From: Okamejei kenojei
Taxonomy: Eukaryota
Direction of reading: 5' to 3'
DNA length: 64,000 bases
Assembly: GCA_035221665.1 (NCBI GenBank)
Contig: CM069151.1
Coordinates: 16,244,001 to 16,308,000, forward strand
Of the stretch, positions 18,001 to 19,672 are shown one piece after another. A program made the position numbers. Each line of letters begins with the position of its first letter. Position 1 is the first letter of the stretch.

Positions 18001-19672
18001 AGAGTTACAAAGACCTCCTAGGACCTCGTGTCGACCATGCTGCGAGTATGAGTCGAGGGCAAACTCGTCTGAACTCGCGGATTAGGTCGCACAAGTAGGA
18101 CAGCCCCTTCAGGGATAGTAATTACAAAAGTTGATTGGAATAGATTGTAAGCAGGCAAAGGGACATCCAAAAATTGGGATGCTTTTAAAAGTGTGATAGA
18201 GTTCAAGACATGCATGTTCCTGATAGAGCAAGACAGGTAAGAGTCAAGAGTGTTTTATTATCATATGTCCCAGTTTATTATTGTAGCTGGCTTCACCATC
18301 ACCCCCAGCAGTGCATTCCAGGCACTTACTGCACATGGTGTAAACAACTTGCTCGACACATTTCTTTTAAACATTATCCCTCTAATATTTGGTATTTCCA
18401 TCCTGGGAAAAAATATTCTGATTGTCTACCCTATGATTCCCTGACTATTGCTTCACAATACTCACCACATAATCCATTTGCAGATGATCTCCAGTCGACA
18501 CATCTATTGCACATTTGGGCAGCTGCTTCCAAGCTGGAACAGTCAGGTCTTCTGGGATTCGACCCACAGTTGGCACCTTCAAGGCTGGAGCAACCATTTT
18601 CTTCGGAACCGGAATGTGAACCTGGCTCTGATCCGGAATTTGAACCTGGACGTGGACTTGAATGTGAACCTGGCTTTGATCCGGAATTTGAACCTGGACG
18701 TGGACGTGAACGTGAACCTGGCTCTGATCCGGAATTTGAACCTGGACGTGGTCTTGAATGTGAACCTGGCTTTGATCCGGAATTTGAACCTGGACGTGGA
18801 CGTGAACGTGAACCTGGCTCTGGATCTGGCCCTGATCCGGAATTTGAACCTGGACCTGAATCTGAACCTGGACGTGACTCACAACTGCCATCTTCACCAC
18901 TGGAACAATCAGCTTCTGTGGAATTTGCCCCACAGTTGTCGTACTGACATGCCTGGTTGTAGAAGTCGAAATGCTTATTGTTTCTGCAACCACTGAATGA
19001 ACTGTAGAATTGGAACATAAAGTATTTAGTCCTACAATTTAATAAAACCCAAAATGATTTCACATCTAAGAAAGCTTAACATTAATTGCAACAATAAAAT
19101 TACAATGCATATAACAAACGTGAGAAATTCCTTTCTCTGTTGTTTTTGACTAATACTTGTTAAGGGGGAGAATGCTTATTAATTGTATATACTGTATAAT
19201 GGGCAAGATTTCGAGAAATACCAGTTACTAAAATGTTAATCAAAATGTTCTGTATTTTTCACATCTATGACAGTAATGCATTTATTCCCATGCCCACCCC
19301 TAACCTATATCTGGTATGCATTTTCCTAGTAATGCAAGTGCAAATCCCCCAATAATAAAAAATACTGAATTCTGAAATAATCTTGATCATGATCGGATAA
19401 TTTGCCAGTTCAATGGTGCTATTTAATCAGTGACCACCGTATATTTGGTGCAAATAGCCTTGGACAACAGTGAACCATGTGGTCTTTTAAAAATCAACTT
19501 CTGTGCTAAAATATTTAGCAAAGCCATTAATGCACTCAAAATAATGCTCAATGTTTGTATTAATGTTATCCAATGTCATTTTGAAGTATTAACAGGCTAC
19601 CAATGAAGCCAAGAGCAGTCCCACAACAGGAACATGATTCAAACCACATCATATGTGCTGAAGTGGAATTGA

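What the first reader, a model, noticed from the sequence alone, without database searches (positions are those of the whole stretch)
18466..19001. Gly/Ser/Pro/Arg tandem repeat inserted inside the C8-4 domain
Seen in sequence: a normally compact C8 exon is expanded to 536 nt by about 90 aa of 16-aa units, PGS(R/H)SRPRPGSNSGS(K/E). The insert sits among three copies of a CSS(G/L)E motif (ADCSSGEDGSC, NGCSSLEGANC, PDCSSLEAAAQMC), which adds four Cys. It has no Thr, unlike the PTS region, and is rich in Ser-Gly and Arg. Inference: a second, non-PTS disordered loop that could carry Ser-Gly xylosylation/GAG sites, or a cationic RPRP segment affecting gel or adhesive properties. I know of no such insert in mammalian mucin C8 domains.
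Basis: partly seen in the sequence, partly recalled or inferred. Interest (0 to 1): 0.75.

Follow-up and report, generated by a model that had tools for sequence, protein, structure and literature searches.

The report
Repeat-filled loop inside a mucin domain
One exon of a non-human gel-forming mucin gene carries an in-frame 121-residue insertion, mostly a serine/proline-alternating repeat, inside a normally compact cysteine-rich domain; whether it is expressed or has a function could not be tested here.

Summary
On the minus strand, 19001-18466 is a 536-nt exon with good splice sites. It lies where the C8 module of the D4 assembly of a MUC5-like gel-forming mucin gene should be.

About 173 nt of the exon encode a recognisable but divergent C8 core with 7 canonical Cys. 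The other 363 nt are an in-frame insert (residues 33-153). The insert holds two decayed copies of the C8's own 'CSS.E...C' segment, which account for the four extra Cys. Between them runs an unbroken tract of 46 (Ser/Pro)-x dipeptides (residues 42-133). That tract is organised as 48-nt units, and a 96-nt pair of units was duplicated very recently.

The tract has no Thr, no Cys and no hydrophobic residue. Its net charge is +6 and its pI is 11.6.

My best reading is a lineage-specific coding minisatellite that was built by local duplication and is translated as a disordered, basic surface loop. The glycosaminoglycan and adhesive ideas remain untested.

Transcripts, orthologues and long reads could not be consulted. 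Both structure predictions failed (pLDDT 45 and 40).

Verdict: a real feature and a new variant of a known kind, of moderate-to-low interest until expression is shown.

The parts
18466..19001 (-). C8-4 exon with the insert (536 nt; 178 full codons from 19000 plus one split base at each end)
   Evidence: Splice sites and layout. The upstream donor at 20535 is phase 2 and fits the acceptor. The 3' donor has the same position and phase as the C8-3 donor at 55852.
18905..19001 (-). N-terminal canonical part of C8-4 (residues 1-32, Cys 5, 18, 23, 32)
   Evidence: Pfam C8 profile positions 10-42 of 68 match residues 2-33, but weakly (E 0.39, 11.5 bits, cut-off 23.7). MAFFT alignment with the gene's own C8-3.
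18542..18904 (-). The insert as a whole (residues 33-153, 363 nt, 121 aa). Its boundary can be slid by up to 4 residues because 'DCSS' is duplicated at both ends.
18875..18907 (-). Copy 1 of the Cys-bounded segment, CSSGEDGSCES (residues 32-42)
   Evidence: 29 of 45 nt identical to copy 2 without gaps; 0 of 2000 base shuffles reached that score.
18602..18877 (-). Tract of 46 (Ser/Pro)-x dipeptides (residues 42-133)
   Evidence: Odd positions: S 29, P 17. Even positions: G 19, R 10, N 5, E 3, H 3, D 2, K 2, S 1.
18626..18817 (-). Four full 48-nt (16-aa) units arranged as two 96-nt pairs (residues 62-125)
18560..18592 (-). Copy 2 of the Cys-bounded segment, CSSLEGANCGS (residues 137-147)
18542..18559 (-). 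Short linker NPRRPD (residues 148-153). It resembles the start of the repeat tract that follows copy 1.
   Evidence: the resemblance is my reading of the sequence.
18466..18541 (-). C-terminal canonical part of C8-4, CSSLEAAAQMCNRCVDWRSSANGLC (residues 154-178; copy 3 is the original)
   Evidence: Aligns with '[26 protein letters not shown]' of C8-3. Low-confidence predicted helix at 157-171 and 157-167.
20536..20733 (-). Upstream exon (end of VWD4 region and first Cys of C8-4, ...SCENATVCDVLKG)
   Evidence: Acceptor at 20734; donor at 20535 (6.2 bits, phase 2). No Pfam or meaningful PDB hit by itself.
26507..26785 (-). Stop-free stretch holding the start of VWD4 ('WGRRHYRTFDG')
   Evidence: Pfam VWD 9.1e-14, profile positions 1-73. 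PDB hits to FCGBP, VWF, MUC2 D4 chains and MUC5AC.
21898..22293 (-). Stop-free stretch holding the later part of VWD4
   Evidence: Pfam VWD profile positions 74-140, E 0.002, below the cut-off by itself.
16978..17160 (-). Stop-free stretch holding the second half of TIL4 (...EGCFCPEG...)
   Evidence: Pfam TIL E 0.0037, below the cut-off.
55853..56009 (-). Paralogous C8-3 exon of the same gene, 157 nt, without an insert (the comparator)
   Evidence: Pfam C8 6.4e-14. Splice sites. Best PDB match is human MUC5AC, 2.5e-17.

Best explanation
The exon encodes the C8 module of the D4 assembly of a MUC5-like gel-forming mucin. It has acquired a lineage-specific, in-frame, 121-residue insertion by repeated local duplication.

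Origin, inferred from the sequence:
1. The segment that encodes the Cys-bounded start of the last C8 helix (CSSLEAAAQMC) was duplicated. Two shortened copies were left upstream (CSSGEDGSC and CSSLEGANC).
2. The linker after the first copy then grew as a hexanucleotide-based tract, (TCA or CCA) plus one more codon, into 48-nt units.
3. A 96-nt pair of units was duplicated very recently.

Consequence, inferred:
- The tract is translated as a 92-residue, hydrophilic, net-positive chain with no fixed structure.
- It leaves and re-enters the C8 core at neighbouring points, just before the last helix.
- The four added Cys pair among themselves, so the canonical disulfide framework is kept.

I take it to be a tolerated surface loop that evolves as a coding minisatellite. 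If it has a role, the most likely one is charge-based contact with the polyanionic glycans of mucus, or a carrier of Ser-linked glycans, rather than a structural part of D4.
For: Shown:
- The repeat and its coordinates.
- Both flanks are C8-like in one frame, and the insert is 363 nt, a multiple of 3.
- Copies of the 21-mer start 48, 48, 48, 60 and 24 nt apart, all multiples of 3.
- The upstream junction is in phase (donor at 20535, phase 2).
- The 3' donor is strong and sits at the same position and phase as in the paralogous C8-3 exon.
- Divergence is graded, which indicates stepwise growth rather than one event. Units 1 and 3 differ at 0 of 48 nt, units 2 and 4 at 1 of 48, units 1 and 2 at 4 of 48, and copies 1 and 2 of the Cys segment at 16 of 45.
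- Copies 1 and 2 keep both Cys, two Ser, a Glu and a Pro. Four of those seven conserved codons differ only at the third base (my reading).
- The three Cys-segment copies are more alike than shuffles: 0, 2 and 2 of 2000 shuffles reached the observed scores.
- The 21-mer from the unit occurs nowhere else in the 64-kb window.
- In the 91-aa array, 0 of 91 residues are hydrophobic, GRAVY is -1.75, net charge is +6 and pI is 11.6.
- Neither structure model predicts helix or strand in residues 24-156.
- The extra Cys number four, an even count.
Against: - There is no transcript, orthologue or long-read evidence of any kind.
- 5 of 6 frames are open across the array, so openness is no evidence of coding.
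- The exon alone misses the Pfam C8 threshold (11.5 bits against 23.7). The flanks alone hit nothing in Pfam or PDB.
- Both structure models are unusable. Mean pLDDT is 44.8 and 40.3, and 0 of 178 residues reach 70. Loop exposure and Cys pairing are therefore inference only.
- There are in-frame cryptic GT...AG pairs inside the exon (18 pairs).
- The junction to the next (TIL4) exon could not be resolved with good sites, so a defect in the gene or in the assembly just downstream is not excluded.
- The windows used for the Cys-segment comparison were chosen after I had seen the motif.
Confidence: 0.6

Rival explanations
1. The repeat tract is wholly or partly removed from the mature mRNA as an internal, in-frame intron (an 'exitron'), so the secreted protein carries a much shorter loop.
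For: One search lists 18 in-frame GT...AG pairs inside the exon. The best internal donor (GT at 18882, GTT|GTGAGT, 6.0 bits) can join the repeated ...CGTCCAG| acceptors at 18790, 18742, 18694 or 18646. This would remove 31-79 residues and would re-create the Cys codon at the junction.
Against: - The internal donor is weaker than the real one (6.0 against 9.5 bits).
- The acceptors have modest pyrimidine tracts (0.58-0.68).
- None of the 18 pairs has an acceptor beyond 18646, so none removes copy 2 of the Cys segment or restores a canonical C8.
- The acceptor-like CAG sites inside copies 2 and 3 are one base out of phase with all six candidate donors (and my reading).
- The scoring matrix is recalled from textbooks, not fitted to this species.
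Confidence: 0.12
2. The array, or its copy number, is an assembly artefact.
For: Units 1 and 3 are identical, and units 2 and 4 differ at 1 of 48 nt. Near-identical tandem copies of this kind are prone to mis-counting.
Against: - The array is only about 210 nt long.
- It is flanked by diverged partial units and by two diverged Cys-segment copies that an artefact would not create.
- There are no N bases in the window.
- At most the number of 96-nt pairs would be wrong, not the existence of the insert.
Confidence: 0.08
3. The D4 region of this gene copy is decaying (a pseudogene or a dispensable exon), and the insert is unconstrained junk in a degenerating C8.
For: - C8-4 scores poorly against Pfam.
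- The flanks have no PDB hits.
- The strong donor at 18465 has no good in-phase acceptor leading into the TIL-like reading frame at 18366-18247.
- VWD4 has GRRH where the GDPH cleavage motif lies in MUC2.
Against: - All 7 canonical Cys of the exon are kept, and the frame is maintained through 363 inserted bases.
- 3 of the 4 junctions examined are in phase with good sites.
- The neighbouring domain pieces (VWD3, C8-3, three CysD, VWD4, a cystine-knot-like piece) are open with intact Cys patterns.
- Weak in-frame routes to TIL4 do exist.
Confidence: 0.1
4. The tract is a functional attachment region for glycosaminoglycan chains, which would make the mucin a part-time proteoglycan.
For: - The insert has 9 Ser-Gly sites, and 6 of 9 have an acidic residue within three positions.
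- It has two SGxG matches and one GSG match.
- A proteoglycan review treats Ser-Gly flanked by acidic residues as potential glycanation sites (PMC4859157, passages seen).
Against: - The only acidic clusters are ED at residues 36-37 and EE at 133-134, at the two edges.
- The core units carry Arg or Lys and are net +9 over 64 residues.
- In the core units Ser-Gly recurs once per 16 residues, not as consecutive repeats.
- No search or experiment here bears on actual modification.
Confidence: 0.07

Closest known systems
C8 module (Pfam PF08742) of the D assemblies of gel-forming mucins and von Willebrand factor, in particular the D4 assembly (VWCN-VWD4-C8-TIL) described for human MUC2
   Same: - It lies between VWD4 and a TIL-like piece. 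This matches the D4 order given in PMC10082768 (passages).
- Seven Cys and the ...C..WR....C ending align with the gene's own C8-3.
- The 3' intron position and phase are shared with C8-3.
   Different: - There is a 121-residue insert before the last helix, with four extra Cys.
- The Pfam score is below the cut-off.
- The second Cys of the 'CxC' seen in C8-3 is absent.
- In the 11 alignments to C8 modules of MUC5AC, MUC5B and FCGBP printed, this loop is aligned with gaps of at most 2 residues.
Mucin PTS tandem repeats (coding minisatellites)
   Same: It is an in-frame tandem repeat of low complexity, rich in Ser and Pro, with very similar neighbouring copies that suggest ongoing expansion.
   Different: - It has no Thr at all, is rich in Gly and Arg, and is net positive.
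- It lies inside a folded cysteine-rich module rather than between modules.
- It is only 92 residues long.
Ser-Gly glycosaminoglycan attachment regions of proteoglycans (serglycin, aggrecan, phosphacan)
   Same: It has recurring Ser-Gly dipeptides, some with an acidic neighbour (PMC4859157 passages).
   Different: - The Ser-Gly dipeptides are not consecutive.
- The context is basic rather than acidic.
- There is no homology; the resemblance is one of composition.
Dipeptide-periodic Pro-rich repeat proteins (SPRR/cornifin; procyclin-type X-Pro repeats)
   Same: - Every second residue is Ser or Pro.
- There are weak compositional hits for the array alone: Cornifin E 7.9e-5 (23.3 bits) and Trypan_PARP E 0.21.
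   Different: - Both hits are below the curated cut-offs (34.8 and 100 bits).
- There are no Gln/Lys cross-linking motifs and no shared domain.
- I treat these hits as composition, not relationship.

Membership tests
C8 domain (PF08742) | Score at or above the Pfam gathering threshold | tested here: not met
   The exon alone gives E 0.39 and 11.5 bits against a cut-off of 23.7 (residues 2-33 match profile positions 10-42 of 68). The flanks alone give no hit. The domain is split both by the insert and by an exon boundary. Exons were not joined, so the whole domain was never scored.
C8 domain (PF08742) | Conserved cysteine framework and the C-terminal ...C..WR....C ending | tested here: met
   MAFFT alignment with the gene's own C8-3, which scores 6.4e-14 against Pfam C8. 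Invariant columns include C23, C154, C164, C167, W170, R171 and C178. By hand, 7 of the 11 Cys are canonical.
C8 domain (PF08742) | Position between a VWD domain and a TIL domain | tested here: met
   VWD upstream scores 9.1e-14, plus a second piece covering profile positions 74-140. TIL downstream is only weak (E 0.0037, below the cut-off).
C8 domain (PF08742) | Helical C8 fold | tested here: inconclusive
   The two AlphaFold2 runs gave mean pLDDT 44.8 and 40.3. Only low-confidence helices appear, at 14-17 or 11-23 and at 157-171 or 157-167. No fold search was run on such models.
Gel-forming mucin (MUC5/MUC2 type) | D3 assembly, CysD domains, Thr-rich stretches, D4 assembly and C-terminal cystine knot on one strand, in that order | tested here: met
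   - TIL 2.6e-5 and VWD 5.8e-9 at 60.9-60.5 kb.
- C8-3 6.4e-14.
- Three Mucin2_WxxW (CysD) hits of about 1e-13.
- VWD4.
- The cystine knot is only weak (E 0.004, below the cut-off).
- Thr-rich stretches are short.
- C8-3 is closest to human MUC5AC (2.5e-17) and MUC5B, ahead of MUC2 (1.4e-12).
Mucin PTS domain | Rich in Pro, Thr and Ser together | tested here: not met
   The array has S 29, P 17 and T 0 of 91 residues.
Coding minisatellite (VNTR) | Head-to-tail units of high identity whose length is a multiple of three | tested here: met
   Period 48, 4.4 copies, 92% matches. Copies of the 21-mer start 48, 48, 48, 60 and 24 nt apart.
Coding minisatellite (VNTR) | Copy number varies between individuals | not testable with these tools
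   Only one sequence is available.
Proteoglycan GAG-attachment region | Ser-Gly flanked by acidic residues | tested here: inconclusive
   6 of 9 Ser-Gly sites have at least one acidic residue within three positions, and 2 of 9 have a basic one. There is no acidic cluster inside the core units.
Proteoglycan GAG-attachment region | Xylose-linked chains actually present | not testable with these tools
   This needs glycoproteomics of the native protein.

The most novel reading that the evidence does not exclude
The tract is expressed and is a second kind of mucin low-complexity region. It would be a Thr-free, arginine-rich (Ser/Pro)-x chain anchored by two added disulfides inside the D4 assembly. 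It would either bind the mucin's own (or a neighbour's) polyanionic glycans, acting as a built-in, charge-based and possibly pH-sensitive (His-containing) cross-linker of the gel, or carry glycosaminoglycan chains. Either way it would give a folded mucin module a material-tuning function that has not been described for C8 domains.
Probability: 0.1. Interest if true: 0.6.

Novelty: new variant of a known kind. Interest (0 to 1): 0.35.

Why it matters
C8 modules are treated as compact, invariant parts of the D assemblies that polymerise mucins and von Willebrand factor. A C8 that tolerates a 121-residue insert with four extra cysteines would mark a permissive loop in that fold. It would also show that coding minisatellites in mucin genes are not confined to the PTS region.

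In this gene the Thr-rich stretches found in the window are short. The tract would therefore be a sizeable share of the protein's disordered sequence. If it is expressed, it is a natural case for studying how charge and serine-linked modification inside D4 affect a mucus gel. If it is spliced out or polymorphic, it is an ordinary unstable repeat.

Tried and rejected
- PDB sequence search with the whole exon gave only 5 low-complexity hits, E 0.024-6.3, none a mucin. I treat them as compositional.\n- PDB and Pfam searches with the two flanks alone gave nothing.\n- PDB searches with the neighbouring exons gave nothing meaningful. The exon at 20831-20505 gave 2 hits at E about 0.9. The piece at 17160-16978 gave 13 hits at E >= 0.11.\n- AlphaFold2 was run on the exon alone and on the exon aligned with C8-3. 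No vertebrate genome or transcript collection is on hand, so orthologues stayed unchecked.
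Full report
WHAT IS THERE

The window has no N bases. The feature lies on the minus strand. Reading 19001 down to 18466 gives a 536-nt exon. It is preceded by ...ttccaattctacag| and followed by |gtgagt. The best GT inside the exon scores 6.0.

The reading frame starts at 19000 and gives 178 residues:
- Residues 1-32 are cysteine-rich.
- Residues 33-153 are the insert.
- Residues 154-178 read CSSLEAAAQMCNRCVDWRSSANGLC.

THE REPEAT

Tandem Repeats Finder reports one array at 18612-18822, with period 48, 4.4 copies, 92% matches, no indels and score 373. 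It is the strongest of the 7 rows with score >=80 in the whole 64-kb window.

A 21-mer from the unit is found 6 times (5 exact, one with 3 mismatches), only at 18605-18853. None of 100 shuffles gave any match. The repeat is therefore real, local and not a dispersed element.

There are four full 16-residue units at residues 62-125. Units 1 and 3 are identical in DNA. Units 2 and 4 differ at 1 of 48 bases. Units 1 and 2 differ at 4 of 48. A 96-nt pair of units was therefore duplicated very recently.

Beneath the 48-nt unit there is a finer order. Residues 42-133 are 46 consecutive dipeptides whose first residue is always Ser (29) or Pro (17). The second residue is Gly, Arg, Asn, Glu, His, Asp, Lys or once Ser. 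None of 5000 shuffles of the same residues reached a run of 46, and the longest was 18.

The 91-residue array (residues 43-133) has no Thr, no Cys and no hydrophobic residue. Ser, Gly, Pro and Arg make up 82% of it. Its net charge is +6 and its pI is 11.6.

IS IT A C8 MODULE, AND WHICH GENE?

The minus strand of the window carries these domain pieces, in order:
- a TIL (Pfam 2.6e-5) and the start of a VWD (5.8e-9) at 60.9-60.5 kb;
- the end of that VWD and a clean C8 (6.4e-14) at 56.4-55.8 kb;
- three CysD exons (Mucin2_WxxW, about 1e-13 each);
- a VWC-like piece at 27.0 kb (my reading only; no Pfam hit);
- VWD4 in two pieces (profile positions 1-73 at 9.1e-14, and 74-140 at E 0.002);
- the exon of interest;
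- a TIL-like piece;
- a weak cystine-knot match at 8.2 kb.

This is the layout of a gel-forming mucin. It also matches the D4 order VWCN-VWD-C8-TIL described for MUC2 (PMC10082768, passages seen).

The gene's C8-3 is closest to human MUC5AC (2.5e-17) and MUC5B, ahead of MUC2 (1.4e-12). Identity to MUC5AC is about 25 of 54 residues by my count of the printed alignment. VWD4 matches human chains no better than that. The gene is therefore MUC5-like and the sequence is not human. I did not try to identify the species.

The exon alone matches Pfam C8 only weakly (E 0.39, 11.5 bits against a cut-off of 23.7; residues 2-33 match profile positions 10-42 of 68). Its flanks alone hit nothing in Pfam or PDB. 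Three things still place it as C8-4:
- Its position between VWD4 and the TIL-like piece.
- The alignment with the gene's own C8-3. This puts a single long gap opposite the insert and lines up C154, C164, C167, W170, R171 and C178.
- Its 3' intron. It falls one base after the last Cys codon, in phase 1, exactly as in C8-3. There the donor is GCC|GTAAGT at 55852, and the TIL3 exon starts at codon position 2.

The 5' junction is also consistent. The upstream exon ends AAA|GTATGT at 20535 in phase 2, and the first base of the exon is a third codon position.

For size, the insert-free C8-3 exon is 157 nt. Without its 363 inserted bases the C8-4 exon would be 173 nt.

ANATOMY AND ORIGIN OF THE INSERT

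The exon has 11 Cys. Seven correspond to canonical C8 positions and four are extra.

The extra ones come from two shortened copies of the segment that opens the last C8 helix:
- CSSGEDGSCES (residues 32-42);
- CSSLEGANCGS (residues 137-147);
- the canonical CSSLEAAAQMC (residues 154-164) follows them.

At the DNA level, copies 1 and 2 share 29 of 45 bases without gaps, and 0 of 2000 shuffles reached that score. Each also resembles copy 3, with 2 of 2000 shuffles reaching the score in each case. The windows were chosen after I had seen the motif, so these numbers are generous.

Copies 1 and 2 keep both Cys, two Ser, a Glu and a Pro. Four of these seven conserved codons differ only at the third base (my reading). 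This is what long retention in a translated frame would produce, but the sample is tiny.

Copy 2 is followed by GS-NPRRPD and copy 1 by ES-RPGSDSG... . The repeat tract therefore looks like an expansion of the linker after copy 1.

Differences are graded: 0-1 of 48 between recent units, 4 of 48 between the two unit types, and 16 of 45 between the Cys-segment copies. This points to stepwise local duplication over a long time, with the latest step very recent.

The repeat motif occurs nowhere else in the window.

IS IT TRANSLATED?

Five of six frames are stop-free across the array, so openness is not evidence.

The evidence for translation is indirect:
- Both flanks are C8-like in the same frame.
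- The insert and the spacings between successive copies of the repeat's 21-mer are multiples of three.
- Both junctions fit.
- By contrast, the minisatellites in the next intron have periods of 22, 10, 20 and 12.

Against this, the exon contains 42 GT and 46 AG dinucleotides and 18 in-frame pairs that pass lenient thresholds. The best pairs run from GT at 18882 to the repeated CGTCCAG| acceptors and would remove 31-79 residues. No scored pair reaches beyond 18646, so none removes the second Cys-segment copy or restores a plain C8. The CAG sites in copies 2 and 3 are out of phase with all six candidate donors. Only transcripts can decide.

STRUCTURE

AlphaFold2 on the exon alone gave mean pLDDT 44.8. 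With the two-row alignment A1 it gave 40.3. In both, 0 of 178 residues reached 70. The only elements were low-confidence helices in the flanks (14-17 or 11-23, and 157-171 or 157-167), with nothing in residues 24-156.

I ran no fold search on such models.

Two points remain inference: that the loop is exposed, and that the four extra Cys pair among themselves. The basis is the even number of extra Cys and the bracketing of the insert by duplicated segments.

In the 11 alignments of C8-3 to C8 modules of human MUC5AC, MUC5B and FCGBP printed, the corresponding loop is aligned with gaps of at most two residues. None of these modules is a D4 C8. The MUC2 D4 chains did not appear for either C8 query.

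FUNCTION

Nothing here tests function.

On the glycosaminoglycan idea:
- The insert has 9 Ser-Gly sites. 6 of 9 have an acidic residue within three positions, and 2 of 9 have a basic one.
- There are two SGxG matches and one GSG match.
- A proteoglycan review treats Ser-Gly flanked by acidic residues as potential sites (PMC4859157, passages).
- However, the core units are net +9 over 64 residues and lack acidic clusters.
- The motif evidence is therefore neutral to weak.

There is no furin-type or RxxR site, and the only N-glycosylation sequon is N26.

I commit to a tolerated, disordered, cationic surface loop that evolves as a coding minisatellite (confidence 0.6). Ser-linked glycosylation or charge contacts with anionic mucin glycans are its most plausible activities.

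WHAT IS KNOWN

Six full-text searches listed no paper that describes an insertion or repeat inside a mucin C8 domain:
- gel-forming mucin / C8 domain / insertion;
- mucin / skate / gel-forming;
- C8-4 / mucin / VWD4;
- gel-forming mucins / elephant shark / VWD;
- C8 domain / tandem repeat / disordered;
- mucin / Ser-Gly / glycosaminoglycan attachment / von Willebrand.

I read passages only, in seven papers:
- PMC10880436: C8 helices pack against the VWD sheet.
- PMC4989455: spiggin domains; nothing on C8 inserts.
- PMC12775068: not relevant to C8.
- PMC10082768: D4 architecture and the GDPH motif.
- PMC4948705: mucin repertoire of a cartilaginous fish.
- PMC10707392: mucin-5B and mucin-2-like proteins in shark skin mucus.
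- PMC4859157: Ser-Gly attachment sites.

Supplements were closed. Supplementary Fig. S5 of PMC10082768, a disulfide map, could bear on the Cys pairing.

The ESM Atlas gave no usable hit. The insert may therefore already sit in a public gene model without my being able to see it.

VERDICT

The functional half is untested. It is a new variant of a known kind (a C8 module carrying a coding minisatellite and four extra cysteines). Interest is 0.35 until expression is shown.

Noticed in passing
window 18247-18466 (minus strand): The junction from the C8-4 exon to TIL4 is unresolved. The strong phase-1 donor at 18465 has no good in-phase acceptor leading into the TIL-like reading frame 'KKCVEQVVYTMCSKCLECT' at 18366-18247. 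The in-frame routes all use weak sites: donor 18465 with acceptor 18348 (pyrimidine fraction 0.32), or a 2.0-bit donor at 18445 with acceptors at 18364 or 18352. The best acceptor in the interval (tttttcccag| near 18402) runs into stop codons within 10 codons in the frames I read by eye. This could be an unusual splice, an assembly error in an A-rich run, or a defect in the gene.
   Followed up: partly
window 28500-47000 (minus strand); CysD exons 30598-31086, 36719-37207, 42803-43291: There are three genomic tandem units of about 6.1 kb (spacing 6121 and 6084 nt). Each carries a CysD exon. The exons are 98.2-99.6% identical over 489 nt, which points to very recent amplification or homogenisation of the central mucin region.
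   Followed up: partly
window 30287-30382, 36402-36503, 42491-42589, 51022-51177 (minus strand): The Thr-rich coding stretches are short. There is a small poly-Thr piece per 6.1-kb unit, with 7, 9 and 8 Thr before a shared ending, and one 52-residue stretch at 51.0-51.2 kb. A scan of all stop-free stretches of at least 30 aa found no long PTS exon. If the assembly is right, this mucin has an unusually small PTS region.
   Followed up: partly
window 26507-26785 (minus strand): VWD4 begins CQIWGRRHYRTFDG. It has GRRH where MUC2 carries the autocatalytic GDPH motif, so acid-triggered Asp-Pro cleavage is not expected (the role of the motif is from passages of PMC10082768 and PMC10880436).
   Followed up: no
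window 17627-17877: The intron after the C8-4 exon holds a cluster of short minisatellites with periods 22, 10, 20 and 12. This differs from the 48-nt period of the exonic array.
   Followed up: no
window 19676-19710: There is a run of 35 G (C on the coding strand) in the intron about 700 nt upstream of the exon.
   Followed up: no
window 18210-18947 (plus strand): There is a 245-residue plus-strand ORF, and three further frames are open across the array. These are by-products of a stop-poor repeat and not evidence of an antisense gene.
   Followed up: yes
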